A stretch of DNA of 64,000 nt, from positions 2,108,001 through 2,172,000 of the forward strand of contig JBHGNT010000007.1 in the NCBI GenBank assembly GCA_043228905.1. Reading direction: 5' to 3'. A program made the position numbers and the translations under genes. A model generated the notes under the pieces. That model was given only the letters and a program-made list of their open reading frames with translations, was not told the origin of the DNA and searched no databases. Shown piece after piece: positions 8,676-54,199 of this stretch (positions are counted from its first letter, which is position 1; every line of letters starts with the position of its first letter). The DNA comes from Azolla caroliniana. Lineage: Eukaryota > Plantae > Polypodiophyta.

Positions 8676-9399
8676 ATGCCACTCTCTGCGCTCCACGTTC
8701 TCTGTTTCTCCATCGTCTTGATGATGGTAATCCTCCCTTGGTTTTACATCACTATAATTAATCAAAATCTTCCTTTAATAGCGTCATTACTCAGTATGAT
8801 CATAGGGAGTAAATCCAGTTACTCCCTATGAGCAGATGTGTCATATAATTACAAATTTTATGCAATATAAATTCTAAAATCTTTAATCATGTCTTTATTG
8901 ATCGTGGTAGAGGTCAATTATAATGGCCGCTGTCAATGCCTGGATGTTCCACTCCCTGATCAAGCTGCACATCCCAGAGCTCAGAGACTTGGGGGATGTT
9001 GCAGAGTACACTTCCTTCAAGTTGCTATGCGTATTGCTATGTTACATTGCGTCCTTCATCTGCAATTTGAATACCGCCAAGTATTGTTGCTATGTAATCT
9101 GCGTGAACAGCTCACGGCTTGGGAATGACCGTGAAGGTGTGAACATGGCCATTTCCAGGGCTTCCCAGTTCTGGTGGGTTGGGCTAAGAGCCTTTACTGT
9201 CTCCTTCCCCATCTACTTGTGGTTCTTATTTGGTCCTACCCCGGCCATACTCTTATTGACCTCTCTCATTCTCAGAGCTCTCTGGCTCCATTTCTTTGGC
9301 ACCGAGAGAGAGATTCCGAGCGGTAACATGGAGGCCCATCAAGACAACCAATCTAATAATTACCGCCCACAATCCGAATTACTCACCCATGTACTCTAA
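8676..9399 (+). CDS. DUF599-like multi-pass membrane protein, copy 1 (exons 8676-8726, 8911-9399; ~179 aa)
   Basis: KLLCVLLCYIASFICNL and RASQFWWVGLRAFTVSFPIYLWFLFGP match the plant DUF599 C-terminal pattern (RGSYFWSLGLRAFYFSFPLFLWIFGP-like). Phase-0 intron GTAATC...TAG joins the exons in frame. Confidence 0.85.
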
Positions 9400-9679
9400 A
9401 AGTCCGGGTGCAGCCAAAAGGATTTATCTTACTTAGTTATCCTTCGATTGTTTATTGTTTGGAGTTTCCCATTGGAAATACTGGTTGTGCCCAGACAAGT
9501 TCCCTATTAGGAGCGTTCCAATGAGTTTCCGTTTCTTTATTATTTTGGTATCGACTTGATCCTATTCTGGTTGTGCCAAGAGATGTTGTATACTTATATG
9601 TATCATAGAAAATCCAGTTACCCTTAAAAGTTGATGTATGGTACGGAAGCTCATCATGATCATGGCCTTTGTAGGTCTC

Positions 9680-11420
9680 TCAGGCAGCCTCATGTTCATG
9701 TTTCAGTGATTGATATATATATATATATATACATATACATATGTGTTTGTATACATAATATATAACTTGTGTCTCAAAGCTCTGTTTCTTTCATTGCTTA
9801 CCGACATGTATACATATTCTTATCACAAAACAACAAAAAATCTGCCACTTTGATCAGTACTTGATACGACGATGGAACAAAATTAATAATGAACGATCAT
9901 AGATAGAGGAAACAAGGACCCTAACTACTACTACACACGGATATGAAACACAGATCTGTGGAGTATTCCATTGACCATAAGTATATCTGTGTATGTCCAG
10001 ACCACCATAGCTATTATAGCTATGCATTCAGAGACCTCGGTCTTGATCAACGATTGCGTGATCTTTGAATCATAGGTATTGATTGGGGTAAAATAATTTG
10101 GGGGAATTTAAGATATAACGCACCAGGTGTACCTGTAATAATCATGTCATGAGCAAGGACAAGAGCTAGGGTGCTCTGTCGCTCCTTCTGCTTGGAATCA
10201 ATTGTCTCTGCGATGGCACTCTCGATACTCCGTATTTGGCTGTGGATTCATATAAATAGCTCATTAAAATTGGGAACTGTGTGCCGCCTATACCCTTAGA
10301 AAAAGCATTCCATCTACAAACAGAAATAATACAAAGAGACAGATTCTGTAATGGGGGATCTACGCTTAGATTCAAGATCCTTGCCAGTGTCGAGGATTGA
10401 AGAAAAGCATCTGATCTTCTCATCAACAGGCGCAACAGAAATAAATCAGTGGTCTGTCTTTTGGAAGAAAAAGCATCTTAATATCTTCTCCTGATCAAAA
10501 GTAACCAGCTCTTTTGTTGACCTTTTCCTTCCTTTTTTTATTATATTGATTTGATTTGTCCGGCTGCCCAAATGTGAAACCGAACATGTCTCTCCTTCTG
10601 TCTGCTCCTCCCAATGTCTGACAATTAGGCTTCATTTTCGTTTCATTTCTACGCATAATATTTGTCATTAATATGAGAACACGTTGGACAAAACCGAGAA
10701 GGACATAGTACATTCGTTGGAACGTGCCTCCTCATATTCAATTTCATCCTCTGGTGGACATACATATGTGTATCTTAGTATTTATAAGATGATTTATATA
10801 ACTTTTGTGTATTTGTTCAAATGTATTCAAGCATATGTTCATTTCCCCAATCATATATATATTATGATAATGGCAAAGCTACAAATGTTGTGATTTTGAA
10901 TTGGTTACAAAAGTTTAGAGGGACTGCACAGTCTCTTCATGTCATCTATGAAGCTGCCATATCAGTAAGGGTGTAGTTAATATTTTGGGTGTGAAACTTT
11001 GTTTAAGCTAAATTCATATCTCCACGTAAATCTATTAATCATCAAATTGTAGAGCTAGGACTTCAAAACTATAGTTGTCAAGCTTGTCTCTCATTCGGAA
11101 CGAAGTGAAGCAAAGGCATGTAAGGAGGTAAGAGGGAATGAAGAATGGTTTTTGCTGCCATAGCCATACTCTCAACATTCTTAATGCTTTCAATGTTTGT
11201 ACTAATAATTTGATTTGTCCAGGCGCCCAAGTGTGAAGCCGAGATGCCAGAATCTAATACCATTTTCATTTGATTTCTCTTTCAATCTTCCTAAGAACCA
11301 CATCCAAAATCTCCAATCCCTGTGTCATGGTGTATGTGTATCATCTGCCTATCTTCAATGTATGTATATCATGTATGTACTAGACATGCATGTGCATGTG
11401 ATTGTTAATTTGTGTGTGTG
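9680..11420 (+). repeat. Shared 3'-flank block, + orientation
   Basis: Direct match to 50480-52050; 9680-10978 is the reverse complement of 20558-22385; partial match to 38930-39620. Confidence 0.9.
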
Positions 11421-11429
11421 TGAATATGA

Positions 11430-14329: not shown

Positions 14330-14429
14330 ATGGCCCTCATCTCTTCCGCCATAGTCTTGATATTGGTACTTCATGCAAATATTCATTGCTATTCAATGTT
14401 GTGATTAAGCATGATGATCATATATGTGC

Positions 14430-14476: not shown

Positions 14477-15098
14477 TTACCGGATGAAGCATATCATATG
14501 TTTCATTATATAGATGTAATTGTATATTTGAATTTGGAATTATAAATCCTAAATCTTTTGATGATGTCTTTATTGATCATCATGATAGGGCTCCATTCTA
14601 ATGATGGCTCTCAATGTCTCCTCATTCTCCGCGGTATTGATCCTGCACAGCTCAACTTTCACAGATCAGGACACTCTTTCTACCATATTGCTATCTTGTG
14701 CCTTGTCATGGGACTTCCAGTCCTTCATCTTCAACTGTAAGGTCGCATACTACTGTTTGTATGTAATCTTTGTGAAAGGCATACAGCTTGGTTCGGATGC
14801 GCTTGGCACTCACAGTCGAGAAGATGTGGACATCGCCATTTCCAGAGCTTTGCGGAACCAATCCCGTGGGTTCAGAGCGCTCTTATATGTCTCCCTCCCT
14901 ATCTACTTATGCTTCTTAGTTGGTGTTGTTGCGGCCATATTAGTTTTGATCCCATTGATCATCACAACTTTGTGGCTCCATTTCTTTGGCAATGACAGAG
15001 ACTCCAACACGATTCTGAGTGGTATCATTGAGGCCCATCAAGACAACCAAAATTATAATCACCGTCCACAATCCGACATAATTGCTGATATAGTCTGA
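14330..15098 (+). CDS. DUF599-like membrane protein, copy 2 (exons 14330-14365, 14589-15098; ~181 aa)
   Basis: Exon 1 MALISSAIVLIL, donor GTACTT, acceptor catgatAG|GGC TCC ATT CTA ATG in frame; homologous to copy 1 including the EAHQDNQ...PQS tail; TATATA at about 14263. Confidence 0.85.
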
Positions 15099-20557: not shown

Positions 20558-22385
20558 ACTACGCCCTTACTGATATGGTAGCTTCGTAGATGACATGAAG
20601 AGACTATGCAGTCCCAGTAAACTTTTGTAACCGATTCAAAATCACAATATTTGCAGCTTTGCCATTATCATAATATAATTGGGGAAGTGAACATATGCTT
20701 GAATACATTCGAACAAATACACAAAGAGTTATATAAAACATCCTATAAATCTAAGATACACATATGTATGTCCACCACAGGATGAAATTGAATATGAGGA
20801 GGCACGTTCCAACAAATGTACCATGTCCTTCTTGGTTTTGTCCAACGCGTTCTCTTTAATGACAAATATTATGCGTAGAAATGAAACAAAAATGAATCCT
20901 CATTGTCAGTCATTCGGAAGACTAGAAAGAAGAAAGAAAGAAAGATATATTAACGTCTTCTAAGGCCAAATTTGGCCCATGAGACAATTGGTTTACAACA
21001 AAAATGAGTGTTTATCCAATCATCAAAACTAAAATAAAAGAAAATAGCTTAAGTACAAAACTTTGCACTAAGCCTAATCTCATTTCCACCCAAGTCTCTC
21101 AAAAAGAAGTGGGAGGTCAAAAGTTTTTGATGTAGGTGTGACCCATGGTCCCGATGCATGGAGTGCCCTAGTCATGGCTTCTAGGTGGTGTAGTTCATGT
21201 TCCCTTATTTTCTTTATTGCTTCTACATCTCGTCGAGTTGCTTTGAAACCCGGCATCCAAGGGCGTTTGGTTCTTCTTTGATTTTCTGCTTCATCAAGGA
21301 AAAGCCCGAGTGGTGCAGGTGTGTCGACATTCATTGTCTCCCCCTATTCCTGAAAAACTTCATTTGTTACATGTTGGTAAACATTAGCAACACTATTATC
21401 AACGTTTTGTAACTTATTCTCTCTGTGTTGTTTCAATTCTAAGATGTATCTACCTAATTTCTTTATATCTAGTGTATCTAATAGTTTAGGGCAGCTGGAC
21501 ACTTGTCCGATTTTACACTTGGGCAGCTGGACAAATCAAATCAATACAAAAAAGAGGAAGGAAAAGGTCAACAAAAGAGATGGTTACCTTTTGATCAAAA
21601 GAAGATATTAAGATGCTTCATACCACTGATTTATTTCTGTTGCGCCTGTTGATGCGAAGACGAGATGCTTTCATTCAATCCTCAAAACTGGCAAGGATCT
21701 TGAATCTAAGCGTAGATCCCCCATTACAAAATCTGTCTCTTTGTATTATTTCTGTCTGTAGATGGGATGCTTTTTCTAAGGGTATACGCACAGAGTTCCC
21801 AAATTTAATGAGCTATTTATATGAATCCACAACCAAATATGGAATATCGAGAGTGCCATTGCATAGATAATTGATTCCATGCAGAATGAGCGACAGAGCA
21901 CCCCATCTCTTGTCCTTGTACCGGAGATGATTATTACAGGTGCACCTGGTGCGTTATATCTTAATTCCCCCAAATTACTCTACCCCAATCAATACCTACG
22001 ATTCAAAAATCACGCAATCGTTGTTGATGAAGACAGAGGTATCTGCATGCATAACTATCATGGTCTAAACATTACACAAATACTTATGGTCGATGGAATG
22101 CTCCGCAAATGTGGGTTTCATACACGAGTATCCGTGTATAGGTGTTAGGGTTCTTAGATTCATATCTATGATCATTCATTATTTGTTCCATAGTCGTATC
22201 AAGTATTGATCAAGTGGCAGATTTTTTTGTTTTTTTCTGATAAGAATCTGTATACATGTTGGTAACCAATGAAAGAAACAGAGCATTGAGTCACAAGTTA
22301 TATATTATGTATCTAAACCCATATGTGTGTGTGTATATATATATATCAATCATTGAAACATGAACATGAGGCTGCCTCAATGGCC
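20558..22385 (-). repeat. Shared 3'-flank block, - orientation
   Basis: Reverse complement of 9680-10978 and 50480-51610, interrupted at about 20935-21490. Confidence 0.9.
20935..21490 (-). mobile_element. Probable 5'-truncated non-LTR retroelement 3' end
   Basis: Absent from paralogous blocks; (AAAG)n tail at the left; short minus ORF 21080-21334; tail-proximal sequence aacgtcttctaag...caattggttta recurs near 54480-54530. Confidence 0.5.
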
Positions 22386-22393
22386 ATGATCCT

Positions 22394-22469
22394 GAGCCAC
22401 AGAGTTGTGATAATGAAGGCGCTCAATATCGAGATTGCCCCAAGAGGACCAACTAAGAACAAGAAGTAC
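22394..22469 (-). pseudogene. Relic exon-2 fragment of a minus-strand DUF599-like copy
   Basis: Reverse strand reads YFLFLVGPLGAISILSAFIITTLWL, compared with FLVGVVAAILVLIPLIITTLWL in copy 2. Confidence 0.8.
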
Positions 22470-25400
22470 ACACACACAAACTAACAATAACATCCACATG
22501 CACATGCACATGCACATACACATAGATAAATTTACAATGAGACACACGTGCAATCAATGACTATTTCAATCCTACGTCCGATGCCCCCAGAAAGAAACTC
22601 AATATCCAATCCATAAACTCTCCAATCTATATTCCTTTCGCTTTTTTGTATATGTATACATAGATTGTATATTGGAATATATGTCTATATTGGAATAAGA
22701 AAAAAGATGAGTTGTCGGTGGAATAGATAACTTTTCTTCACCTTCAATTTCATCGTTTCCGTTATCATGCACATAAACACACACACACACACATACAAGT
22801 TAATACAGGGCCTCAATTTGACAAGTTAGTATAAAAGTTTTTTGACGGCCATTTTTAAAAGATGTATGTCATATGACACAAGAGTGCAAAAAGTAACATG
22901 TCATTTGACATACAAATTTTAACAATGAAAGTTCTATATGATGCTTCATTGTTATATATATATATATATTTATTTATTTATTTATTTTCCAAAAAAAACT
23001 CCTTCCATTAGTTATAAAATTTTACAAATGAGGCGATTATGTACAAATCCCTAAAGGGACGCGATAGTTCCATCTAATGTGGAAGCCCACTGACTCAAGA
23101 AAGGGAGAGGACAACCATTGTTGGATGAAGGCTATGCGTTGTCTTTCAACTCCCTCGGAGCCACCTTTAAGGCCATCATATTGGCTCTTCAGAGTGGCTA
23201 CAATTTCACTCCATATCTCTTGCAGTAACCTTGTTGGATGGGTGGTTTGGTTGGAGAAGACTCGCCTACATCGTTGTTTCCATAGAATCCAAAGGGTTAT
23301 TGGGCTGACCAATTCCAACACCTCTTGAGATTTGTCATTAAGAGGAAAATAGTGGACATTGCCGCTAGAGGAGAAAAGAACCTCTTGTGCTTTTATCACC
23401 AAAGTCATCCCCTCCTCCGGATGCTCGTATTGGCCAATTGCAGCCTGCCATGATAGCCAACATATATTTCCCCACTTGATTGAACCTTGCACCTCGCATA
23501 ATTGCAACAAGCGGCCAACCCCCCACCATGTTCTATGGGACGTTGGGCAGTCCCACAGAGCGTGTCGTATGGATTCTACTGCATGTGGGCACTCTACACA
23601 ATTAGGAGAGCTAAGGTTCCCACGTTGCCATGCTCCCACCGGTAGGGACTTATGTATTAACAACCATTGGAAAGTGGTAATTCGCCTTGCGTGTTGTTGC
23701 TTCCAGATTTTCTGCCAAAACTTGGTGATTATTGCGGAGGGAACTTGAAATGTGTGCCAGACCTTCGCAGCAGCCGGTTCTCGGGTGGCTTGAGCAGTTA
23801 GAATTTGGCGACCCAATCTAGTTGTGAATTGGAAGAAAGGGATGGGTTTGCTTCCTTGCCCCGCATAGGGATCACGCCATGTCCATTGCAAATGGTCCCA
23901 ACTGATCTTACGTAGCCATGTGTTTTCATGAGTACATGTATGCCAATCGGGTTGTACTTTGATCGGATCAGGATCTACAATCCATTTATGACCAGTGTAC
24001 GCGAGTACTCGAATGGCGTTATTCTGTGTGGGTGTCTCAATGTCTCTCACTTCATGGCCTTCAAGCATGTTTGGTGATCCCCTACCTCTCGAGATTAGAG
24101 AGCCCTCCTCCTCGTGGCCTATACATTTCTCCATTGTCATCCTTTGAGTAGCAGATTCCCTAATCAATAACGCGTTAATGATTTCCGATCTCATAGTCCA
24201 TCCACCCCTGATTCCATGGAGTATGTTCGCTTGATCTTGTAGTGGCATTGACATAAACCGTCGCCAACATTCAGTACTTTTGCCTGGACCTTCTGCAATG
24301 TATCCCCATGACAACCCCTTACGTGATCCCAGTAGTTGATTAGATTCATCCTTGAGACATGGGTTCCATAGAATACGTTGACTGAGCCAGGCAGGTTCGG
24401 ATCTCGGTTGATCACACTGGAGCCCCCGACGAATGTCACACCATGCCTTCCACATGGATGCACTGAATCTGTCCTCCAATTGGCAGGAGAAACTAGGTTT
24501 GAGATCCATGTTTAGAATCCATCCCGTTTGGGGGGCCCAATTGACCCCTTTTCGTGGCCTAAAGTAAGCGAAACGTAACCTCAATAGCATTTTCCAACAA
24601 TCATTTCGTGGTTGGAGTCCTCGCACCACAAATTTGGCAAGTAAGGCTTTCGATTGTGAAAGGGGATCAATAAGACCCAATGCCCCTCTCGACTTAGGCG
24701 TTGTGAGTATAGGCCACGCCACCTTGGCGCGAGCTACATGGTCTTCCTTACCAGACCAAATGTAGTTGCGAACCAGTCGTTGAATTTGATGTATACTTTC
24801 CTTGGAGATTGTCCAGCATGATAGACTGTACCATGCTGTTGCGAGGAGTACCTGATTTGCCACTATGATGCGACCTGCTAGTGACAATTGTTTAGAGCTC
24901 CAATGTATCAACTTTTGTCGAATGGAGAGGATAACGGGTGCAATCATAGTCTCCGGTGGTATGTTGAAGCCAATTTGGAAGCCCAAATATTTGGTGCTCG
25001 CTCCTTGATTGATCCACTTGAAAGCAGGGTGAGGGTGCCACGCCGGATGTGTTTCCTGAGAAAGCCATATTGCACAAGATTTGTGCCAATTGATCATGGC
25101 GTTGGATCGCTTGCAAAATAAAACTAGCCCACTTTCTAGCTTTTGGAGGTTTTCCAGGTAGACTGTTGTGTCATATGCAAATTCTATATCCAGGATGCTT
25201 TGGTAAGAATGAGGTATGGGAAGACCACATAGGTTGAGATGCCGCGAGTTGAGAAAGCAAGAGAGTGCTTCGGCGTATAATAGAAATAAGGATGGAGCTA
25301 GTGGACATCCCTGTCGTACAGAGCGGGATATTCAGAAAAAGGGGCCCCTTTCACCTGCCAACGAAACACAACTGCTGCCATTCCTATAAAATCCTGCAAT

Positions 25401-27108
25401 GCCTTTGATCCATGTCTCTTGAAAGCAGAGTTTCCTCATCACACTTTCTAGAAAGTTCCAGCATACCCTGTCATAGGCTTTCTCAAAATCTAGTAGCACC
25501 ACCGCTACCTTCTTGTTGATCTGCTTGGCAAGGGCTATTGCTTCCCAAAATGAGAAGAGGTTGTCTAGGATGCTCCGATTTCTAACGAAACCTGTCTGTG
25601 ACGGATGAATGAGTTGAGGAAGAAGTGGAGTTAAACGGCGTGCCACGATTTTTGCGAGCAACTTATAGACAGTATTGAGAAGAGTAATGGGCCGCCACTT
25701 GTGAATGTCGTTGGCATTCCCACCACGTTTAGGAATGAGATGTATCATCCCCTGTCCAAATTCCTCCGGCATGCTTCTAGAGGTGATGATCTCCTCATAT
25801 GCCTAGAGGAGGTCTTCTTTAATAGTGCCCCAAAGGCATGTGAAAAAGTGCGGGGTGAGACCGTCAATTCCGGGGCAGCTCTCAACATCTAAATTAGTGA
25901 GGGCCTCCAAAATCTCAATGATTGATAGAGGACGCACAAGCCATGTATTCATTTCCGGTGTGACTTTCTCGGGTATGCTTTGGAGGATAATATCATCGCT
26001 TATGTCTTCCTCTGTAGCTATCATGTCTTCGGTAAGTAGGCGGCTATTATAATACCTTGTGGCAATATTCCTCATTTCGTCGCCATCCTCAGTGGTTGTT
26101 CCATCCTCCCGGTTGAGGCTACGCATCACAGTTCTAGCGTGCCTCGGGCCTTTGGAGCGGAAGAATTGCTTTGTGGTTTTGTCCCCTACTCGAATCCATC
26201 GTGCCATGCTGCCATGAAACTCCATGTCGTATATTGCCCCCGGGGACTCCACTATATATAAGACGGTTGTATCACGTGCGTTCATGACATCATTTATAAA
26301 CCCCTTATACGTATGGTTTTTACTATTTTAGTGACCCTTTTGTAGAAAAAAGATTAATAAAAATACCCCTTACTACCAATATATTTTTTGATAACCACCC
26401 ATTTTAAATACCCTTACATATAAAATATACATGCACACATAGTTTCCAATCCTAGCAAGGATCAATGACCGCTTGTACAATTGATGACTCGCAAAATTAT
26501 GAATGAACATTAAACATCATATGCAATTCCTAGAAATGCTTCATCAAGTGCCACATAGATTGAAAACACAATGTGTAAAGTACAAAGTAATGCACACACA
26601 ATTAGGAAACATTACCCAAAACACTAGAGGTATAACATACATAAGCTGCATATAAGTTTTTTTTTTAGTTTATTGAGACATATGAAGAATATAGCGTGAT
26701 AAAAAAAATGTAATTTAAAAGAAAACAATCTTGAACTTGATATATATATCTCAAAGAGAAGATGTGGAACAATCCAAAATGCATATCAATAATGAAATTA
26801 CTAACAAATTAACCTTATGTTTAGTTTCATGGATAGACTCATACGAAGCCGTAACATTATTTTTTCTCTTCTTGTTTCCCATTCAAAATATTATTTTTTG
26901 TGTACACAAAGGAAAATGGTTCATAAAATATACCATCCTCAATTATTTCGACTCGGATCTTTGCATATATAAGAGTTCCTCTCCACTTACAATGCCCAAA
27001 TGTTTATCTTCATCATCCCTCTCATGTTCAAACACTTCAATAATAGATTCTTCACCATTATCTACAAATAGAATGACCCACCTATCACTTTTCATATAAC
27101 CATACATC

Positions 27109-27148: not shown

Positions 27149-28474
27149 ATTGTGAATGTGGTATTCATGTGTGATTTGTGTGTATGTATGTTCCATACAT
27201 CATATATGTTTGTATGTGGTATGCATGTGTGTTGTTTGTTATGTTTGTGTGTGCGTATGTATATATGTTCCATACATCATATATGTTTATATGTGGTATG
27301 CGTGTCTGTTGTGTTTTATGTTTGTGTGTGTGTATGTATGTTCCATACATCATATATGTTTGTACGTGGTATGCATGTGTTTGTGTGTATGTGTATATAG
27401 GTATTGTATTGCATGTGTATATAGGTATTTGTGTAATATGTATGTACATATTGTATTGTATTCTATTGTATTTATTGTGTATGTATAGCATGTGTGATGT
27501 GTGTTATGTTTGTGTGTGTGTGTGTGTGTACATATTGTATTGTATGTACATATATGTTATGTGTAAATGTGTATGTATGTCAGTGTATATAGGTATGTGT
27601 GTATGTATGTACATATTGTATTGTATTGTATTAATTTTGTTTATTGTATGTATGGCATGTGTGTATGATTGTATACGTTATGTGTGTGGTGTGTGTGTGT
27701 GTGTGTGTGTGTGTGTTTATGTATGTATGTATGTACGTGAGTGTGTGTAAGTCTAAGAATTTATGTGTTGGTTTATGTATGATGTTTGTACTTATGTGTA
27801 CCTGTAAAATATTTGTAGAGTACTTGTGGCAGCCCCGACAGAGAATAACGGTGAGCAAAAGCGGCACGACAAGGCGAGCGGCGGCGGCAGCAAAACGAGA
27901 ACAAAGGCGGCAAAATGAGGACAGAAGCAACAAGGGGAGAAGAGGCGACAATAGCAATGAGGAGAGACGAGGAGGTAGAGCAAAGGAGGAGGCGGCAAAA
28001 ATCTAAATTTAAAAAAACATGAATGTTTGAATATCATGTTTAGTATGAACGAATGTATGTATGTATGTATGTATGTATGTATGTGCACGTAATGTATGCT
28101 TGCATGAATAAACATGAATGAATGTACATATGTGTATATATGTAATATGTAATGTATGTATATTTGTATGTGTATGTGTATGCATAATACATATATGTGT
28201 GTGTGGATGTTTGTTGTAATATGTATGTATGTGTATGTATAATATATATTGTTTGTAAGCATGAGACTACATTTAGTAGTGATGCATAGGGATCGGCAAC
28301 GGCTCGGCTCAAGCCTAAACCGTTTGGCTTAGCCGGCTTGAAAACGGCTTGGCGGCTTGGCGGCTCGGCTCGGCTCAGTTTAGGCTTGAGCCTGCCTTAA
28401 CGGTTTGAGCTTGGCTCGGCTTGGCTTGAGCCTCGCCAAACCGGCTCAAGCCGTTTAAGCCGTTTAAGTGATAT

Positions 28475-28720
28475 AATTAGTAATTAGTAATTAGGTAATA
28501 AGTATTACTAATTAATAATTAGGTAATAGGTATTACTAATTAATAATTAGGTAATAGGTATTACTAATTAATAATTAGGTAATAGGTATTACTAATTAAT
28601 AATTAGGTAATAGGTATTACTAATTAATAATTAGGTAATAGGTATTACTAATTGGTAATTAGGTAATAGGTAATAGGTATTACTAATAGTAATTACTAGT
28701 AATTAGTAATTAGGTAATAG
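28475..28720. repeat. 28-bp tandem repeat inside the hAT
   Basis: AGGTAATAGGTATTACTAATTAATAATT repeated with period 28 (e.g. 28521, 28549). Confidence 0.92.
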
Positions 28721-28815: not shown

Positions 28816-29230
28816 TACAGACAGACAGATAGAGAGAGATAGAGAGAGGTCAGCTCAGAGCTGCACTCTGAATAGTAGATACTACAAAGTGGAAGACGAG
28901 AACCTGCTGTTGCCGCCTGCGTGCATTGTGCAGCCCCGGGCCCCGACCCCCAAGCCTACAAATTGCATAACTCCATCTATTCTACAAAGGCCTATAGGTA
29001 AGATTCACATTGCACAATATAATTATGAACATATATAAATAATGATACAGTCAAAATTCAATTAAAAATTACTTTACCTCAAGGCTCATATGACATACAT
29101 TAGTAACAAATTTACCCACAATCATTGTAATTTGTCACTATAGTCTACAATGTAGACATATACGAAGTAAGATTCACAATAAAATTATACACATATATGA
29201 ATAATGGTATAGTCAAATACTTTACCTCAT

Positions 29231-31943: not shown

Positions 31944-34910
31944 CATTCATTCATATTTATTCATGCAAGCATACATATTTTATGCATACATTACATATAT
32001 ATATTCATTCATTCATACATGCATACATTACGTGCACATACATACATACTAAACATAACATTCAAACATTCATGTACAAATGTACATATGTGTATGCATA
32101 TATGTAATGTATGTATGTATGTATGTATGTATGTGTGTGTGTGTGTGTGTGTGTATGTGTGTGTGTGTGTGTGTGTGTGAGCGCGCGAGCACGCGCGCAT
32201 GTGTGTGTGTATGTGTGTAGGTGTATGCATATATCCATATGTCAATGTACATGACTCAATGTATGTGAATGTGTGATTGTAATATATGCATATGCAATGT
32301 ATGTATGTATATGCATGAATGTACATATGTGTATTATGTATATATGTAATATGTAATGTATGTATGTTTGTATATGTATAGTGTATGGCATATGCATATA
32401 TGCATACATGAGTGTGTGGATGTTTGTTCGTAATATTTATGTATATATGTATGTATTGTAGTTTGTGATGATATGTATGTACATATGTAACGTACGTATG
32501 TATGTGTATGTAACGTATTTATGTGTATGCATGTATGTAATGTATGTATATATGTATATATGTGTATGGATGTATGATTGTAAAACTTATGACATTGTAG
32601 GCATATGTATGTATATATATGGTGATATGTGGAATATGTATGTATGTATGTGTATGCATATATGCATTTGTCAATATACATGATTCAATGAGTATGAATG
32701 TGTTTGTAATATGTGCATAATATGTATGTATATGTCCAATGTATGTATGTGTATGTATATGTATGTGTGTATGTGGTCATATGTATGTAAATGTATGAAT
32801 GTATGTATGCGTATATATGTAAATTGTAATGTATTTATGTATGTATATTTTTGGGATATTTTCATGTTTAGTATGTATATGGTTCGTATATGGATGTATG
32901 TTTGTAATATGTACGTAATATGCATGTATATATCCAATGTATGTGTAAGTATACATATACCTAATGTGTGTGTGTATGTAAGTATTGTGGTTTGTATGGT
33001 CCAGTATAATCTATATATACGGTGATATGTGGAATATGTATTTACATATGTAATATATCTATATATGTATATATGTAATTTATGCATGTGTAAATTTGTA
33101 TATTGTGCAATAGGTATGGATTATATGCTATGTAATATCTAATTTATTTATGTGTGTGTGCACGTGTATATATATGTAATATATGTAACTTGTTTGTAAG
33201 TATGAAGATTTAATAACATATAATATGTAGCCTTAGGTATTAATATGTATGTGTATGTGTATATATATAATATGTAATTTATTTTTCTGTGTTTTGTATG
33301 TATATATGCATTTGTGTATGTATGTATGTCATATGTAATTTTATTGTATGTATTATGTTACATGTATATATGTATGTCAATATATATGGTTGAAACTTGA
33401 TTCTAATATGTATGTAGTATGTAATGCATGTATGTATGTGTATGTACATATTTACATATGGTAATACATATTTCGACATATATTTATGTTTAGTCAGTAT
33501 GCATGTATAAATGGGTGTAATGTATGTATATACATATTCATGGATGTAATGTTTGAATGTAGGTATGTATGTATGCTACTCCAAATTTGAGTATTGTTTG
33601 TATAGTATATTCTTTACTATCTCATTGAAATATCTAATATTTCATGGGCTTATGTATTTGTTTTTTCCAGCATAATTGATAATACCCTTATGTAAATATA
33701 TTTTCAAATCTTTATTAATACCCTTATATATATATATTCTGTATCTCACTGATTAAATTAAACCCCTTTTGATGAACTCACGTGCTATCATACAAGTTTT
33801 GACAGTGAAGCCCCCGGGATATTGCCTTTTCTGCCATGCTAAGCTCTTGTTTGGCCGTGGCGACTTGTCCTGCGATCCAACTATAGGATGGGTATCTCTG
33901 TTGGAGGTGTTGTAAGGCTATTAGTCCCCGTTTTGTCCTCTGTCGCTTCTCCTGAGCATCCTTGCGTTTGGTCTTGACAATCTCATGTAGGAGAGTAGAG
34001 GCTCTTGTTAATTTAGCTAAAAGTTTGTCCGATGCCGATGAGCCATTGACGGGTAATGACCATTGGTTGGATAGTTGGTCCTTCACGTCTATAAGTGTGT
34101 AAATAGTGTGTGGGATGCGAGTCGGGAATGGGCCCCATTTTCAGTGCAATTGAAAATGACCAGCTACCGGGTAATGGTCAGAGAAAGTCGTGCCTGGAGT
34201 TATGCGACACCACCCTCCCTTCGCTTCTAAAGCCTCCCCCACATAAATGCGGTCAATGCGAGATAGGGTGGGTCCACTATTCCCCCCGTCTGATCGGGAG
34301 AATAGGAGAGAGTCCCTTTTTCGTTGGAAGTTGGCAGAATGCCATATGTCTCGCAGGTTAAGGTGGACACATAGCTTCTCCCATTGTTTGCGTTCCCTTC
34401 CTTGTAGGACTATGGGGTTGTTGTTGGAACTATCATGAATGGATTCGATCATATTAAAATCCCCTCCAATGCACCACTCTTCCGCACCCACTACTTGTAG
34501 GCAGATGCGGTCCCAGAATGTTGCTCTTTCTGTTCTGTTGTTTGGAGCATAAACATTCATGAAGTTCTATCGTTGCCCTTGGATGGTCAGCGTGCAAAAA
34601 TGTGCCCTACCAGGTATAAGTGATTCTTGGTATATTAAGCCTTGGGCTAGATGTTTCCGAATCAAAGTGCAAATACCACCATGATTTCCATCCTCCCCAA
34701 TTGTTGGCTCCCAAATCGTTCGCCATGATCCTGGTAGAAGGTCTCCGACTTCCTTTAACTGTGTGCTATCGTGGTGGTGTTCCTACAACATGATGATGTC
34801 AGCACCACTCCCTAGTAAATGTTCTTCAAGATCCCTTCTTAGTTTCCATCTATTTTGTTGGTCTAGTCTACTTCTGAGTCCTTGAACGTTCCATGTTATA
34901 ATCTTCATAC

Positions 34911-36781
34911 TCATGGAATGGGGTGGGAGGTTGCCAATTGTGCCTGGTGCTTTGTACAACAGGTCGTGAGTGGGGAGCACTCACCATTTAGACATCCAGA
35001 CATTTCCAGGGATGGAATAGTGGTCCACATCCATGAGTGGAGTTTGTGGGCTATCTTGTGGGCTTCAATCGCCCCTTCATGCTTCTCATAGAAATAGACA
35101 AAGCTTGGAGTTAGTTGGGTGTTTATGATAGTCCGCAGGTGGATGTGGCAAAAATGGGGGTCCTCTTCATCCATGGTGCACCAGAATTCAGTGTTATGCC
35201 AATGTTGCTTTAGTTCATTCATGAGCGCTTCATCTCCTATTTGTGCTACAAAGCATGCTGCTTGGCTACATAACATATCTTTAATCTTGGATTTCGACCA
35301 ATCTTCCTGAGTCGAAAGCAAGAGTGGAAAGGAGATTGAGGTCGTCAGAACTCCGTTATTGTGCACCGCTGATACATGTACCCTTATTTTTTTCACTGCC
35401 TTGAGCCCTATACCTAGCCATTTCAAGGCGTTTTGTGGGTGTGGTTCAAGGTCTTGGCTAGAGGAAGCACACTCATTTGTGTCCGGGACGACTATGATTT
35501 GAGGCATGACATTCACACTTCTGCCTTGGGTTGCTTCTTCTGCATTGGGTGTCGTTCCACTCAAGCTCCTTATTAGGGTCTTTACATGACTTATTCGTTT
35601 GCGTTTCCCTATTTTGTAAGCTTTAACGAGAACTTTCTCTTGGGTGCTTGTGTCACCTTAGGTCATTCCTTGGGGCTTACGAAAGAACTAGGGGAATGCT
35701 CATCTGTGGGGGGGAGCTCTTGTAGTAGATCAAAGCAATTGGGGCTCATAGGCGATGGAGGATTTTGTGCCGGTGATGTTTTTCGAAGGACATGGATTTT
35801 TTCCACCACTCGACATTCCATCACAGCCTTGTCGGGTCGTGGTGGGGGAGGCTTTTGATGTCTTATGGTATCCTGACCTTCCAAAGTCTCCTTTGTAGGA
35901 TCTTTAATACGTCTTGTGGGGCAATTCTTTTTTAAATGACCAAGTTTTTTGCATGCAAAACATTGCCCCGATGCGCCAATCACTTCTATGCGTTGTTCAA
36001 TTCGCATTCCGTTTTTCCCGGGAATGAGGATCTTGGAGGGAAGTTTATTGATGTCCTGCACCAAGAGGCGGATAGAGGGAGGGCCTAGGTGCTTCTTTAG
36101 TCTGTCTGCTAGCGTTAGTTCCTCATCCAACATCATCCCAAAGGAGTTGCCAATAGTAGGAAGTAGCATGTTGTATTCTAAGGATAGTCCAAGAAACAAC
36201 ATTGTTACCTTTTTCATGGAGTCATCCTGTTGTGCGGCTTTCTCTGGGTTAAAACCATGTGTCCATTTACGCATGAACAACCATGTATTACGGACCTGGC
36301 AGGGGGAAAGTGCTATGAGGTTCGTTGCAGACTCCTTGTCTTCTAGTATGATTTGATAGAAGCCTTTACCAAGCGGTTGGACTTCTTTTATACCACGGAG
36401 TTATGAATGAAATTGAGCTTGCAACATATCTCGCAACAACCCTCTGTTTGGTCGTGATCCCATCACTCGGCATATGACCGCTATTCGCTCAAGGCACTCT
36501 ATCTCTTTCTCAAGTAGAAGCATCTCTTCGTTGTTGAAAATAATCTCAACAGGACCCCCGTTATCAGAGATGTTTTTTCTGTTATCGATCGAGGGGCCTG
36601 TTGGTGCAATGTGTTCGACAATGGTGATGTTTGAAGGTGCCATTAGTGATAAAATTGGACTGCGTCTCTTTCTCTTCTTCTTAATTTTTTTTTTTTGAAG
36701 GTTGGGTTCACTCCTCGAACAGTGAACCCCTCGAACTACGCTCCTCGAACACTGTTTTGGGGGGGGCGGTTCACTCCTCAA
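34911..36781 (-). pseudogene. LINE ORF1 (DUF4283-like region, CCHC knuckle, C-terminal extension)
   Basis: Broken ORFs 36401-36781, 35663-36280 and 34911-35564; its stop codon overlaps the ORF2 ATG (ATGA at 34914-34911). Confidence 0.8.
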
Positions 36782-38013
36782 AACCTGCTCCTCCTCGAAC
36801 AGTGGGGGAGGTGTGAGAGGAAACCCTAAATGACGGCCTCCTCACGAAACTGAGGAGGGTGATGCAGCAGCGGCAAGGAGGAGAGGCGCTCCGGCTCCAG
36901 CTCCAGCTCTTGCTCCTGCTCCTACTCCTGCTCTTGCGTTTGTGATCCTTTTGTGTCACAAAGAGGCGTCTCTCGGCCCCTGCTCCGGTTCTTGCTCCTA
37001 TTCCTGCTCCTACTCCACTGCCTACCGGCGCGAGTCAGCCCTCCTGCGCCACTGCTCTCCTATGCCGGGCGGGTCTCCTGGTGAGACGCCCACACCGCAG
37101 ACCTCCGCCGAGGATATACATTTCATTACTATAGAAAGTGCACAAATAAACATAACTACCTCACAAAGATAATGAAATACAAAATAAGTATGAAAAAAAA
37201 AGTTAGTAAAAATTTAGTTTTTAACTTAAAATTTTATGTAAGTAAAAAAATTTACTTTTAATTTAAAATTTAAAACATTAAAATCAAACCTAGAGTTATA
37301 AACTCTTGACGTATGTATTTAATAAAGGTTATTGTTTAAAATTTCAATCAAATTTCCAACTAATATTACTAGTAAAGAAATTAAGAATAAACATTTCAGA
37401 ACATAGTACGTAAAATTCGTGTTCGTCTAGTATAACATTCGTTTTCCTACGTTGGAAAACGAATGCGAATGTTATCCAAACATTCTTGTGTTGTTTTTTG
37501 TTTTTTCCCATTTCTTTAATGTTTTTTTTTTCATTTTTAAGCTTATCTACCTCATAATAAATAGTTAATCCAAAAGTATGGTATTTATCAATCTTTGAGG
37601 GTGTTTTTCTTTCGCGAATGATTGAACCATCAACGAATGCTTTGCACGTATGGTTCACACTATGTTTCAGAATATATATTATTTCAACATGAGAATGATA
37701 TTGTTTAAAATTTCAATCAAATTTCCAACTAATATTATTATTATTAGTAGGGGCCCTTTCCATGAAAAATGGATATTTAAATTTTTGTTTTGGCATTCTT
37801 ATTATGTGTATGACGGTCAAAATGGCACCAAAACAAAAATGGCGTACATGAACACTTGTGTGACACATCTGCTACATCTGCTTTTCGCCTTCCCTCCTTA
37901 AATTCCTTGAACCTTCATCATTCAAGTTTCTATTCCTTCCTTCATCATTCAAGCTGTTGCATATTAAATTCGTAATTCGATCATATATCTTGTAATCCCC
38001 TTGAATTCACACG

Positions 38014-38641
38014 ATGATGGTCCTGAGGAATATGGAGGTGATGGCTTACCCAATTGTCTTGACGCTGGTAAAGTATTTCATCAGTCTCATGATTAGCGGA
38101 TGAATGATGTGTATATGGTATATAATCTGTGATTTCTAACTAATACCTGCCTGAACAGACTTCCCTTTGTATGATCGGTGTCAATATGGAGGCTTTCATT
38201 CACAGCAGTGCAATATTGAAAGACCCGGGAACTCCTTCCACCATATTGCTTTCTTGTGGCTTTTCAGTGAACATTCTGTCGTTTATGTTTAATTTTCAGG
38301 CTGTATGCTACTGTTTGTATGTAATCTTTGTGAAAGCCATGCCTCTTCGATCTGATGTGCTTGAGGCTCACAGTCAAGAAAATGTGGACATTGCCATGTC
38401 CAGAGCTTGCCAGAACCAGTCCCGTGGCATCGGAGCGTTCTTTTATGTCTCCTTCCCTATCTACGTGTGCTTCTTCGTTGGTCCTGTTGCAGCCATACTG
38501 GTTTTGAGCTCCCTCATGATATGCCTCCATTGCTTTGGCAATGCGAGCGACGCGAACACCATTCCGAGTGGTAATCTGGAGGCCCATCAATACAATATTC
38601 ACCCGAGTCCACAATCCGAATTACTCGCTGAAGTAGTGTGA
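38014..38641 (+). CDS. DUF599-like membrane protein, copy 3 (exons 38014-38067, 38159-38641; ~178 aa)
   Basis: Exon 1 MMVLRNMEVMAYPIVLTL, donor GTAAAG, branch-like CTAAC, acceptor CAG|ACT TCC CTT TGT ATG in frame; tail EAHQ...PQSELLAEVV. Confidence 0.87.
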
Positions 38642-50284: not shown

Positions 50285-50371
50285 ATCGACTGGTTACGAA
50301 CACGCTATACTCACTTGCCTTTGGAAATTATATTACCAAAACAATAAAGAATTTATGAATTCTTGTATGTC

Positions 50372-50477
50372 AATTTAGCTTGTTACTTTAGTATAAGGTC
50401 AAATATGACCAACTTTGCTTGTTACTTGAGTATAAGTTCAAACGTGACCAACTTTGCTTGTTACTTGAGTATAAGTG
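50372..50477. repeat. 39-bp tandem repeat, about 2.7 copies
   Basis: AACTTTGCTTGTTACTTGAGTATAAGTTCAAACGTGACC-like units. Confidence 0.9.
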
Positions 50478-52208
50478 TCTCAAAGCTCTGTTTCTTTCAT
50501 TGGTTACGACATGTATACATATTCTTATCACAAAACAACAAAAAATCTGCCACTTTGATCAGTACTTGATACGACGATGGAACAAAATTAATAACGAACG
50601 ATCATAGATATGAATCTAAGAAACCCTAATTACTATACACGGGTACTCGCGTATGAAACCCACATCTGTGGAGTATTCCATCGACCATAAGTATCTGTGT
50701 AATGTTTAGACCATGATAGCTATGCATGCAGATACCTCTGTCTTCATCAACAACGATCGCATGATCCTTTGAATCGTAGGTATTGATTGGGGTAGAATAA
50801 TTTGGGGGAATTTAGGATACTACGCACCAGGTGTACCTGTAATAATCATCTAGACTAGTGCAACGACAAGAGATGGAGTGGTCTGTCGCTCCATCTTCTT
50901 GGAATCAAATTGTCTCTGAAATGGCAGTCTCGATATTCTTTCTATATTTGGGTGAGGATTCATGTAAATAGCTCATTAAATTTGGGAACTGTGTGCGTAT
51001 ACCCTTAGAAAAAGCATCCCATCTACAAACAGAAATCATACAAAGAGACAGTTTCTGTAATGGGGGATCTATGCTTAGATTCAAGGTCCTTGCCAGCGTC
51101 GAGGATTGAAGGAAAGTATCCCATCTTCTCATCAACAGGTGCAACAGAAATAAATCAGTGGTATGAAGCATCTTGATATCTTCTTCTGATCAAAAGGTAA
51201 CCACCTCTTTTGTTGACCGTTTCCTTCCTTCTTCTTCTTTTGTATTGATTTGATTTGTCCGGCTGCCCAAGTGTGAAATGGGACATGTCTCTCGTCCTCT
51301 CTCTACTCTTCCAAATGACTGACAATCAGGCTTCATTTTCGTTTCATTTCTACGCATAATATTTGTCATTAATGAGAACTTGTTGGACAAAACCGAGAAG
51401 GACATGGTACCTTCGTTGGAACGTGCCTCCTCATATTCAAATGTTTTATATAACTTTTGTGTATTTGTTCCAATGTATTCGTGCATATGTTCACTTCCCT
51501 AATTATATTACGATAATGGCAAAGCTACAAATGTTGTGATTTTGAATCGGTTACAAAAGTTTACTTGAAGTGTACTACTGTCTCTTCATGTCGTATTAGT
51601 AAGGGTGTAGTTAATATTTTGGTTGTGAAACTTTGTTTAAACTAAATTCATATCTCCGCGTAAATTTAATAATCATCAAACTGTAGAGTCAGGACTTCCA
51701 AACTATAGCAATCAAGCTTGTCTCTCATTCGAGACGAATTGAAGCAGAGACATGTTACAAGGTAAGAGGGAATGAAGAATGGTTTCCCCCTGCCATAGCC
51801 ATACTCTCAACATTCTTAATGCTTTCGATGTTTGTACTAATAATTTGATTTGTCTAGGCGCCCGAGATGCCAGAATCTAATACCATTTTCATTTGATTTC
51901 TATTTCAATCCTCCCAAGAACTACATCCAAAATCTCCAATCCCTGTGTCATGGTGTATGTGTATCATCGGCCTATCCTCGGTGTATGTATATCATGTATG
52001 TGCTAGATGTGCATGTGGATGTGATTGTTAATTTGTGTATTTGATTGTAAATTTGTGTATTTGGTTGTTTCCCCCCACCAATTACATAGATTTTAAAATC
52101 TTGTAAAATGTTTACACTAATGACAGGATATCTTCTTTCAAATAATAATAACAAATAAATAAAAATTGTGCATGTGGATGTGTGTCTATGTGTGTATGTG
52201 TATGTGTA

Positions 52209-52287
<79 letters not shown>

Positions 52288-53420
52288 GAATGTTACTTTC
52301 ATTGAACCGTTAACTAGTGTGTATAGGTATGTGATTCCTAATGTTTGTGCACTTTTATAGTCAATTAACACTAAAGTCTAATACTAACCCTACGCGTAGC
52401 TCTAATAATTGTGGATGTGTGAGTGCTCATTTCCTTTGAATGTTTTTTTTCGACAACAAAAAACTCTTTCTATTAGTTATAAAATTTTATACTTGTGAAT
52501 GTTATATACAAACCCTAGAAGGGGCTTGATAGTTCTATCTTATGTGCATGCCCATTGCTTTGAATGTTAATTGTTGTGCATATGTGTGTGCAAGGACTTG
52601 GCGATGTGGGTAGTTGGTAGTCACCGTGCATGAAGTTCCACGTACGAAGGAAGGGAGTCTACCCATCTCGAGCCTCCCTCATTGCTTGATCTTTGGCTTA
52701 AGCGTACAATTTACAAATGATAAGGTCTAACCACTGTGTTGGATCATCTGGGAGTACTTTCACAACTTGACCTTTTGGACGTGGAGAGTATTCTTTCTAG
52801 TCAAATGTCTAGCAACTATGTATCGTCCCCGATCAGAAATGGGTCTTTCCATACACTTTTATCTTGGACGGACGGATTGCCTGCAATGCCCATGAATCGG
52901 GTAAATTCCTCTCACTATAACCGTGTTCGGTGCCAAATACTCATGCCCGGGTTTTGGTCCGACACTTTCCTCATTAATGAGAAATATTATGCATAGAAAT
53001 GGAAAGGAAAGGAAGCCTAATTGTGTGTCATTCCAAAGAGTAGAGACTAGAGAGAGCGCAAGAGCGGGAGGCATGTCCGTTTCACACTTGGGCGGCCGGA
53101 CAAATCAAATCAATACAGTACAGCAATGGATTAAGGTGAACTCAAAGATCAATCAATGCTGAGAAGATGGGATAGAAGATTCCCCCAAGTATCTCTGATG
53201 AGCTGCTCTTCTTCTATCCCCGGCACACTCTCGCACGTATGTATCTTTGGATCTCAACCACAGATTTTCTGTTCGTATTAATGCTTTCTTGGAACGAATA
53301 TAACTTAGAGTACATACATCATCGACAAACACAAAAGAAGTCAGCATTACCCACTCTGTATATCAATTTGAACATTTCAAATTTATATACATGAATAATG
53401 GCAAATATATAATATGTGAA
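50478..53420. repeat. Tail-to-tail pair of shared 3'-flank blocks (+ 50478-51420, - 52290-53420)
   Basis: Colinear with 9770-12730; 51245-51400 and 52950-53115 are mutual reverse complements. Confidence 0.85.
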
Positions 53421-54199
53421 TCAGACTACATCAGTGATCAATTCGGATTGTGGAGGGTAATTATTATATTGGTTGTCTTGATGGACCTCTAGGATACTAC
53501 CACTCGGAATCATCATCGTATTTGAGTATCTCTGGGTGCCAATGAAATGGAGCCACAGAGACCTGATGATTAATGGGCTCAAAAACAATATGGCCGCAAT
53601 AGGACCAACTAAGAACCACAAATACATAGGCCATGAGACATAAAAGTAGGCTCTGAAGCCACAGGACTGGTTCTGCGAAGCTCTGGACATGGCAATGTTC
53701 ACATCGGATTGACGGTAATTCTCGATCGCATCCGAACCACCACCACGTATGCTGTTCACGACAAAGATTACATACAAACAATAGTATGCGACCTTAGAAT
53801 TGAAGACAAAGGACTGAACATTCCATGACAAGGCACAAGATAGCAAAATCATTATGGTAGAAGGAGTTCCCGGGTCTCTGAATGTTGCGCTGTGCAGGAT
53901 CAACACGGCGTAGAACGAGCAGACATTGAGAGCCATCATTACAATGGAACTCTATCACAATCCATAAAGACATGATCGAAGATTTAGGATTTAGATTTGC
54001 ACTATACAATCTGTACATATATAAACATGTATGATTTGACAGATTCTGGTAAATTATGTATATATACATGCACGCATATGATCATCATGATTAATTAATC
54101 ACAGGATTAGATAATAAAAATGGATATTGTGTAGGAATTACGTACCAGCATCAAGACTATGGCGGAAGAGATCAGCCCCATCATATTCGTGGGGAGCAT
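53421..54199 (-). CDS. DUF599-like membrane protein, copy 5 (exons 54199-54146, 53951-53421; ~194 aa)
   Basis: Exon 1 MLPTNMMGLISSAIVLML, donor GTACGT, acceptor gtgatAG|AGT TCC ATT GTA ATG in frame; tail EVHQDNQ...PQSELITDVV; TATTTAA at 54267-54261. Confidence 0.87.

What the first reader, a model, noticed from the sequence alone, without database searches (positions are those of the whole stretch)
8676..54199. Expanded, fast-diverging array of N-terminally truncated DUF599-derived membrane proteins
Seen: four open two-exon genes (178-194 aa) with one phase-0 intron at the same position, four codons before the exon-2 Met. They are missed in full by the ORF track because exon 1 is only 12-18 codons. 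They differ at many residues and carry in-frame indels, yet keep frame and splice sites, while flanking DNA is full of indels. Known: plant DUF599 proteins are uncharacterised membrane proteins with an N-terminal YHxWL helix ahead of the LRN motif. These copies start at about that LRN/PRN motif, so the first helix appears lost. Inference: a lineage-specific subfamily under birth-and-death evolution, the pattern typical of defence, reproduction or recognition loci. This is the best candidate for an undescribed system in the window.
Basis: partly seen in the sequence, partly recalled or inferred. Interest (0 to 1): 0.8.

Follow-up and report, generated by a model that had tools for sequence, protein, structure and literature searches.

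The report
Splice-rewired DUF599 gene cluster in fern
A fern carries a cluster of duplicated genes descended from a neighbouring membrane-protein gene of unknown function (DUF599); the copies lack the family's most conserved block, likely through shifted splice sites and a deletion, keep open reading frames under weak selection, and likely act as non-transporting membrane partners rather than as defence genes.

Summary
The four two-exon reading frames are there and descend from DUF599. They belong to a ~210-kb cluster of 7 open and 5 broken copies next to two full-length DUF599 genes 34-39 kb upstream of the window. The host is a fern.

The copies do not start at the LRN motif; that block is missing. 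Exon 1 best matches the start of the ancestral first helix. The acceptor matches a site inside the ancestral intron (E=4e-4). About 60 residues are gone, including 7 of 31 invariant positions. So this is most likely an internal deletion with new splice sites, not an N-terminal truncation.

All 13 coding indel blocks keep frame. dN/dS is 0.6-0.7, against 0.09-0.16 in full-length genes, and is significantly below 1. Positive selection is not significant (p=0.10-0.29). Many relatives in other samples are broken.

Birth-and-death evolution is supported; a defence or recognition role is not shown. Expression is untested. A fold resemblance of full-length DUF599 to the Orai and WeiTsing channels is inconclusive.

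Verdict: a new, lineage-restricted variant of a known family, with a traceable origin and an inferred function.

The parts
8628..8634 (+). TATA-like motif of copy A, 99 nt before the donor
   Evidence: 5% background before a random GT; function inferred
8676..8726 (+). Copy A exon 1, 17 codons; likely the 5' part of ancestral DUF599 helix 1
8911..9399 (+). Copy A exon 2; DUF599 core, the window copy closest to full-length genes
   Evidence: Pfam 43.1 bits
14263..14269 (+). TATA-like motif of copy B, 103 nt before the donor
14330..14365 (+). Copy B exon 1, 12 codons; appears to have lost the upstream ATG and to use the next one
14589..15098 (+). Copy B exon 2
   Evidence: no Pfam hit alone; E=2.5e-6 to a plant DUF599 profile in a 15-protein search
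37962..37968 (+). TATA-like motif of copy C, 106 nt before the donor
38014..38067 (+). Copy C exon 1, 18 codons
38159..38641 (+). Copy C exon 2 (intron shortened to 91 nt)
   Evidence: Pfam 29.0 bits
43621..43896 (+). Broken copy D: exon-2 frame ends at a TAG, 3' part missing, no exon 1 found; repeat DNA abuts the remaining intron end
53421..53951 (-). Copy E exon 2
   Evidence: Pfam 25.0 bits; identical copy E2 at G000:C7:2270287
54146..54220 (-). Copy E exon 1, 25 codons including a 21-nt tandem duplication (18 codons from the second ATG)
54261..54267 (-). TATA-like motif of copy E, 122 nt before the donor (101 without the duplication)
1..130 (+). 3' end of broken copy Y (begins before the window at G000:C7:~2107.6 kb; TAG at 85-87; acceptor altered; sister of D)

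Best explanation
These are duplicated DUF599-derived genes that lack the family's most conserved block, likely through a new splice donor, a cryptic acceptor and a deletion, and whose predicted ~180-aa membrane proteins likely act as non-transporting partners of the full-length protein. Shown: homology, gene structures, absence of the block, weak purifying selection, many dead copies. Inferred origin: a tandem copy of the adjacent full-length gene (K1/K2 type) began splicing at the GT of the Val22 codon in helix 1 and at an AG about 265 nt inside the old intron; a deletion joined a few intron-derived codons to old exon 2 near residues 82-86. This removed the YxxQL motif, the cytosolic helix and the QTLRNxIM block. 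The stump of helix 1 and the stump of helix 2 would form one hydrophobic N-terminal segment ahead of the three downstream helices. The rebuilt gene then spread by tandem and inverted duplication among retroelements. Inferred function (weakest step, about 0.3 on its own): selection keeps membrane insertion and helix packing but not the conserved polar residues, as expected for a scaffold or dampening subunit that no longer conducts a substrate.
For: Two full-length DUF599 genes lie at G000:C7:2068615 and 2072531, and all derived copies found lie within C7:2.076-2.284 Mb. In a 98-column protein tree the derived clade has support 100 and groups with K1 (support 100); K1 versus (K1,K2) as sister is not resolved by codon likelihood. 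A profile of the derived acceptors hits the K1 intron on the right strand at E=4.4e-4 among 9 full-length genes; 6 of 7 copies align there singly in a window chosen afterwards. Exon 1 matches the helix-1 anchor best in DNA (rank 1 in K2, 2-4 in K1) and in protein (rank 1 in both). The broken copy L10 carries the new acceptor region and aligns to K1 exon 2 from base 79 at about 72% identity. 34 of 100 highly conserved and 7 of 31 invariant plant columns fall in the missing block; the QxLRN motif is also in 7 of 7 bacterial loci (partly circular, as one search pattern used it). The invariant Arg143 is lost in 6 of 6 copies. dN/dS: 0.715 over 6 copies (below 1, p=0.012); branch model 0.094 full-length, 0.29 stem, 0.61 derived (below 1, p=0.0065); about 0.5 in the helices, 1.1-1.9 in the N-terminus and loop.
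Against: No transcript or protein was seen, so splicing and expression are predictions. The exon-1 origin is not settled: the end of ancestral exon 1 is a close second (z 1.9-3.0 against 3.1-4.0), copy Z fits it well, and the TATA-to-donor distance (96-106 nt, E 122) also equals the ancestral Tyr-to-donor distance of 102 nt. With gap flanks masked, dN/dS<1 is only borderline (0.71, p=0.058), and the A-Z pair is indistinguishable from neutral (0.91, p=0.77). Only 1 of 9 metagenome loci is fully intact, and the 3 members of the E-type cluster end early. Divergent full-length paralogs keep only 24-32 of the 53 downstream conserved columns, close to the 18-28 of the derived copies, so loss of those columns alone does not show loss of activity. 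The activity of full-length DUF599 is itself unknown.
Confidence: 0.5

Rival explanations
1. The copies are small executor or recognition proteins of defence or symbiosis: removing the cytosolic helices would leave a WeiTsing-sized four-helix unit that forms an inducible pore and diversifies under positive selection.
For: Full-length DUF599 model residues 72-222 align with 118 of 120 residues of WeiTsing (Z 7.0, rmsd 3.6) and residues 58-236 with 130 of 165 of Orai (Z 8.9, rmsd 7.3); this is roughly the part the copies keep. WeiTsing lies in a tandem array that is absent from some accessions (PMC10441888). The N-terminus and loop have dN/dS 1.1-1.9. Open copies are further from K1 than the broken copy L10 is (5 of 5, p=0.03 to 1e-4). 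One ENA protein is an E/C/E mosaic.
Against: All Z-scores are below the tool's caution level of about 13 for helical bundles, and a soluble bundle ranks first. M1a/M2a p=0.29, M8a/M8 p=0.097, M7/M8 p=0.11. No partition is significantly above 1. No immune-receptor family was found among the ORFs scanned inside the cluster; the nearest LRR kinase is about 60 kb beyond it. Reported cues for plant DUF599 genes are sulfate and iron starvation.
Confidence: 0.2
2. The copies are slowly decaying duplicates with little or no current function; open frames are survivors of earlier selection.
For: 5 of 12 copies in this genome are broken; 8 of 9 metagenome loci carry a stop, an early end or a lost 5' half; A-Z dN/dS 0.91, branch Z 1.19; coding identity is close to intron identity.
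Against: 13 of 13 coding indel blocks keep frame and the chance of no stop is about 1e-6 or lower; B/G/C/E dN/dS 0.62, p=0.008; the stop position and tail are kept in all 6 aligned copies; a Z copy in another sample is intact at 98.7%, and 5 of 5 members of the B/G-type cluster run to the same stop.
Confidence: 0.2
3. True N-terminal truncation (origin only): exon 1 is the 3' half of ancestral exon 1, the donor is the old one, and a new TATA box arose from the codons of the YxxQL motif, so helix 1 is lost, though the LRN block is deleted too.
For: The old donor ranks in the top 2-6 of about 1,600-1,800 ungapped anchors; copy Z aligns at z=3.2; TATA spacing fits; the 5' part of the derived introns fits the K2 intron start better in this register.
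Against: The helix-1 register scores higher in gapped DNA tests (7.0 and 9.3 against 4.3 and 5.1) and far higher in protein (86 against 11-12, which favours hydrophobic matches); it needs no new promoter or start region.
Confidence: 0.25

Closest known systems
Plant DUF599 proteins (Pfam PF04654), e.g. Arabidopsis At4g31330 and At5g46060; fern homologs P0015, P0017-P0019
   Same: Homologous from about residue 85 to the C-terminus; two-exon gene with a phase-0 intron; predicted membrane helices.
   Different: About 60 residues missing (YxxQL, cytosolic helix, QTLRNxIM); different donor and acceptor; invariant Arg143 lost; dN/dS 0.6-0.7 against 0.09-0.16; longer conserved tail; 12-copy local cluster. 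At4g31330 is reported as sulfate-starvation induced and predicted at the plasma membrane (PMC13349389, PMC5902692, passages), At5g46060 as FIT-induced (PMC5048462, passages); no such data exist here.
WeiTsing/RPB1 (PDB 8hf2), pentameric ER cation channel of Arabidopsis
   Same: Small helical membrane protein in a tandem, presence-absence cluster (PMC10441888); fold match to the part of DUF599 that the copies keep (Z 7.0, rmsd 3.6, 118 of 120 aligned).
   Different: Z is in the range of unrelated helical bundles; 14% identity; oligomer, channel activity and pathogen induction are unknown for these genes.
Orai (PDB 4hkr), four-helix calcium channel subunit
   Same: Similar helix order over model residues 58-236 (Z 8.9, 130 of 165 aligned).
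   Different: rmsd 7.3, 10% identity; the long helix that would match Orai's first helix is largely deleted in the copies.
Intronization and exonization through cryptic splice sites (PMC9612004, abstract and outline)
   Same: Coding sequence turned into intron by a cryptic donor near the 5' end; intron sequence likely turned into coding sequence.
   Different: Here both changes come with a deletion and found a multi-copy family next to its intact ancestor.

Membership tests
DUF599 (PF04654) | Score over the Pfam cut-off of 27 bits | tested here: met
   2 of 4 open window copies on exon 2 alone (A 43.1, C 29.0); E 25.0; B none. Profile-profile probability 99%.
DUF599 (PF04654) | N-terminal helix with the YHxxL-type motif and following cytosolic helix | tested here: not met
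   No remnant of profile positions 22-85 in six frames of 364 kb outside K1 and K2; only the 5' part of helix 1 is likely kept.
DUF599 (PF04654) | QTLRNxIM block, invariant in 70 plant proteins and present in 7 bacterial loci | tested here: not met
DUF599 (PF04654) | Invariant Arg143 of the SVRYY motif | tested here: not met
   Lost in 6 of 6 open copies aligned.
DUF599 (PF04654) | Ancestral intron position seen in the 9 full-length genes of this genome | tested here: not met
   The acceptor lies inside the old intron; the donor is likely new.
WeiTsing / Orai-like channels | Shared fold | tested here: inconclusive
   Z 7.0 and 8.9, below the caution level for helical bundles; the model of a derived copy is poor (pTM 0.41).
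WeiTsing / Orai-like channels | Homo-oligomer with a central pore and cation conductance | not testable with these tools
   Needs cryo-EM and electrophysiology.
Birth-and-death multigene family | Coexisting intact, duplicated and dead paralogs that differ between samples | tested here: met
   7 open and 5 broken copies; paralog types in ENA records not found in this assembly.
Defence or recognition locus | Diversifying selection on protein sites | tested here: inconclusive
   p=0.29, 0.097 and 0.11 with only 6 sequences.
Defence or recognition locus | Induction by pathogen, symbiont or reproductive stage | not testable with these tools

The most novel reading that the evidence does not exclude
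DUF599 proteins are oligomeric channels of Orai/WeiTsing-like build, possibly for sulfur compounds, and this fern lineage has spliced out their conserved cytosolic gate to make a diversifying family of small pore-forming or pore-blocking subunits used at a microbe or symbiont interface: a new immune or symbiosis gene family caught next to its intact ancestor.
Probability: 0.12. Interest if true: 0.75.

Novelty: new variant of a known kind. Interest (0 to 1): 0.42.

Why it matters
It is a traceable case of a new gene family made from an old gene by moving both splice sites and deleting the conserved core, with the ancestor and a broken intermediate still in the same cluster. It also gives natural deletion variants of DUF599, a bacteria-to-plants family with no known activity, and so a direct way to test which part does the work. 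Without expression or function data it remains a lineage-restricted expansion under relaxed selection, which is common in plant genomes (own knowledge).

Tried and rejected
Expression: no RNA holder listed. The two runs added by species label were uninformative: X2 laid nothing; X1 has a contig of a B-like paralog that keeps about 98 letters across the intron, and no joint at a predicted intron was listed. These are not evidence either way.

Oligomer prediction for four copies of full-length fern DUF599: no verdict (0.28 against a mark of 0.32).

Solved relatives: none by sequence at E<=10; no Foldseek match at E<=0.001. The derived-copy model (pLDDT 71, pTM 0.41) matched only generic helical hairpins, and neither WeiTsing nor Orai was in its top 50. 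ESM Atlas gave no usable hit for either protein.

A DNA profile of exon 1 and its upstream region found nothing in the full-length genes, so the exon-1 origin rests on anchored tests. The LRN-start register was rejected. An extra upstream DUF599 exon was sought and not found.

A general sulfur context for bacterial DUF599 was not upheld: among 21 further loci only three had a sulfur-related neighbour (TauE, SBP56, homocysteine S-methyltransferase) and the rest were mixed (68 of 116 candidate ORFs scanned).

Literature: 'DUF599' gave 26 papers, 24 listed, none by title on ferns or shortened forms (listing only); 'PF04654' 1 listed; YeeE/DUF6691/DUF599 together 0; two fern-oriented searches showed nothing on this family by title. 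No supplements were read; genome annotation tables may already list these genes as hypothetical. Earlier scan notes: nothing relevant.
Full report
OBSERVATION. The window is G000:C7:2108001-2172000 in a 523-Mb assembly. Four open two-exon genes are present as described: A (179 aa), B (181), C (178) and E (201, or 194 from the second ATG), each with a GT..AG phase-0 intron four codons before an exon-2 Met. Exon 2 hits Pfam DUF599 over the cut-off in A and C, just under it in E, and not in B. A profile of the copies matches a 70-protein DUF599 profile from about residue 85 onward (probability 99%, E=9e-18).

THE CLUSTER. The genome has 9 full-length two-exon DUF599 genes. Two of them, K1 and K2, lie 34-39 kb upstream of the window. 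In 364 kb around the window I found 7 open derived copies (Z, A, B, C, E, G, E2) and 5 broken ones (X1, Y, D, F, L10), all within C7:2.076-2.284 Mb. A genome-wide search with E exon 2 gave 13 matches, with no derived copy elsewhere; such counts are lower bounds. E2 has the same coding sequence as E inside a 7,057-nt inverted duplication at 99.1%. G is 96% identical to B in protein, also in an inverted block. Among 58 long ORFs scanned (of 208 candidates in the flanks, plus 8 in the window), those inside the cluster gave retroelement families or nothing, apart from stray NIF-phosphatase and weak HTH hits; the cluster is bounded by a xyloglucan fucosyltransferase and a WRKY gene.

RELATIVES ELSEWHERE. 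Searches with E and A exon 2 returned 9 and 4 proteins, all unnamed ENA records. A profile search of 1.84 billion representatives gave 21 hits; the top 7 are such records and the rest look like ordinary DUF599 proteins (4 of those inspected). A metagenome scan gave 9 loci: 1 fully intact (a Z copy, 98.7%), 1 with intact exon 1 but an early end, and 7 with stops or a lost 5' half. That scan may leave out records very near this genome. The B/G-type protein cluster has 5 of 5 members running to the normal stop; the E-type cluster ends early in 3 of 3. Some paralog types there are not found in this assembly.

HOW THE COPIES WERE BUILT. Tests say otherwise. (1) A profile of the derived acceptor and first codons of exon 2 hits the K1 intron about 265 nt in, on the right strand, at E=4.4e-4 among 9 full-length genes. 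(2) The broken copy L10 carries this acceptor region and aligns to K1 exon 2 from base 79, near residues 82-86, at about 72% identity. (3) Nothing resembling residues 22-85 exists in six frames or in DNA of the 364 kb outside K1 and K2. (4) For exon 1, a gapped scan over 1,500-1,700 anchors ranks the end of helix-1 codon 20 first in K2 (z 4.0, 3.8) and second to fourth in K1 (z 3.1). The old donor scores z 1.9-3.0 and the LRN register at most 1.9. Protein scans also rank residues 20-21 first. The copies are related, so these scores are not independent. I put the helix-1 origin at about 0.7, the old-donor origin at 0.25 and the LRN start at 0.05. A TATA-like motif lies 96-122 nt before the donor in 6 of 6 copies examined, against 5% background; shared descent weakens this.

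WHAT IS LOST. A confident model of a full-length fern protein (pLDDT 87.6, pTM 0.82) has helices 7-35, 41-58, 60-101, 117-153, 165-197 and 199-217. The copies lack the end of the first, all of the second and most of the third. That stretch holds 34 of 100 highly conserved and 7 of 31 invariant columns. Its QxLRN motif is also in 7 of 7 bacterial loci. Downstream, the copies keep 18-28 of 53 conserved columns against 50-51 in K1/K2; divergent full-length paralogs keep 24-32. Hydropathy gives one N-terminal segment and one or two more above threshold, against four in K1/K2.

SELECTION. 13 of 13 coding gap blocks are multiples of 3, and the simulated chance of no stop under neutrality is about 1e-6 to 2e-7, before allowing for the choice of open copies. 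With my own codon-model code, dN/dS is 0.715 for six copies (below 1, p=0.012) and 0.155 for five full-length genes; M1a/M2a p=0.29, M8a/M8 p=0.097, M7/M8 p=0.11. A branch model on the core gives 0.094, 0.29 (stem) and 0.61 (derived; below 1, p=0.0065). Helices are near 0.5; the N-terminus and loop are 1.1-1.9, none significantly above 1. With gap flanks masked the overall test is borderline (p=0.058); B/G/C/E give 0.62 (p=0.008; masked p=0.069); A-Z give 0.91. E2 was left out as identical to E, and broken copies were left out of codon models. Gene conversion was not modelled.

HOW IT LIKELY WORKS. The activity of DUF599 is unknown. Arabidopsis At4g31330 is induced by sulfate starvation in four species and predicted at the plasma membrane (PMC13349389, passages); amino-acid or sulfur-compound transport was suggested from co-expression (PMC5902692, passages); At5g46060 is FIT-induced (PMC5048462, passages). 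Three related betaproteobacterial loci place DUF599 after a metallo-beta-lactamase gene, an ArsR regulator (2 of 3 checked) and two sulfur-transport genes. This resembles the bigR sulfide operon (PMC5823870, listing and start of abstract; the membrane-gene layout is recalled), but 21 further loci show mixed neighbours. The full-length fold resembles PBI1 (Z 9.9, rmsd 2.9, 139 aligned), Orai (Z 8.9, rmsd 7.3, 130) and WeiTsing (Z 7.0, rmsd 3.6, 118 of 120), all under the caution level for helical bundles. I infer that the parent is a small transporter or channel whose conserved polar residues do the work. The copies have lost those residues but keep the packing helices under weak selection. The most likely role is therefore a non-conducting membrane partner or dampener, with a narrow expression pattern. 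This last step is inferred and untested (about 0.3); the origin and turnover are far better supported (about 0.8).

RIVALS. A WeiTsing-like executor (PMC10441888, whole text: a pentameric ER cation channel in a tandem, presence-absence cluster) is not excluded, and the copies keep roughly the matching part of the fold; but positive selection is not significant and no induction data exist (0.2). Slow decay fits the many dead copies and the A-Z pair but not the frame record (0.2). A small, newly built transmembrane resistance gene is known in wheat (PMC13627085, passages), so novelty of structure does not rule defence out.

NOVELTY. The searches showed no description of a shortened DUF599 subfamily (listings only; no supplements read). 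The copies fail three defining features of DUF599, so they are DUF599-derived rather than ordinary members: a new variant of a known kind. Interest is moderate: a clear origin story and useful natural deletion variants, but no evidence yet of expression or of a new function.

Noticed in passing
L082, L087, L088 (betaproteobacterial genomes): DUF599 genes with the plant-like SxRYYSH motif follow a metallo-beta-lactamase gene, an ArsR regulator, a sulfur-transport (PF04143) gene and a DUF6691 gene; L082 also has a rhodanese and L088 a sodium:sulfate symporter. This echoes sulfate-starvation induction of the plant gene. Not general in 21 other loci.
   Followed up: partly
G000:C7:2283010-2283385 (L10): A frameshifted relic with the new acceptor region is closer to K1 than any of five open copies (p=0.03 to 1e-4, mostly at codon positions 1-2). 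It may have kept constraint longer or been converted; or the open copies sped up.
   Followed up: partly
P0002 (unnamed ENA protein): Reads as an E/C/E mosaic: gene conversion between paralogs or an assembly chimera.
   Followed up: no
G000:C7:2158639-2165671 and 2266558-2273607: A 7-kb inverted duplication at 99.1% that carries E and E2; several more inverted blocks link 2.08-2.21 Mb with 2.24-2.28 Mb. Recent duplication or retained haplotype.
   Followed up: partly
N2 intron (G000:C9:~1043.0 kb): The derived-acceptor profile also hits the intron of a distant full-length gene weakly (E=0.021); possibly an old intronic element or chance.
   Followed up: no
window 3108-8109: Copia-type retroelement with long open frames of 976 and 471 aa.
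   Followed up: no
window 57669-63433: Gypsy-type retroelement with 445-nt terminal repeats at 96.6% and several in-frame stops.
   Followed up: no
window 9654-11415, 20558-22395, 50475-52038: Three copies of a ~1.7-kb repeat at 83-90% identity, in both orientations, downstream of copies A, B and E; may be part of the duplicated unit.
   Followed up: no
window 28448-28715 and 29213-30823: A 28-nt tandem repeat, and broken frames that look like a hAT-type transposase (recalled likeness; no Pfam hit at 1e-4).
   Followed up: no
window 23037-26327 and 33778-36841: LINE-type remnants on the minus strand (RT and zf-RVT hits for the first).
   Followed up: no
G000:C7:2039.6 kb, 2285.7 kb, 2344.4 kb: Nearest ordinary genes found: xyloglucan fucosyltransferase upstream; WRKY, then aspartyl/lysyl-tRNA-synthetase-like, GATA, RING and an LRR receptor kinase downstream.
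   Followed up: no
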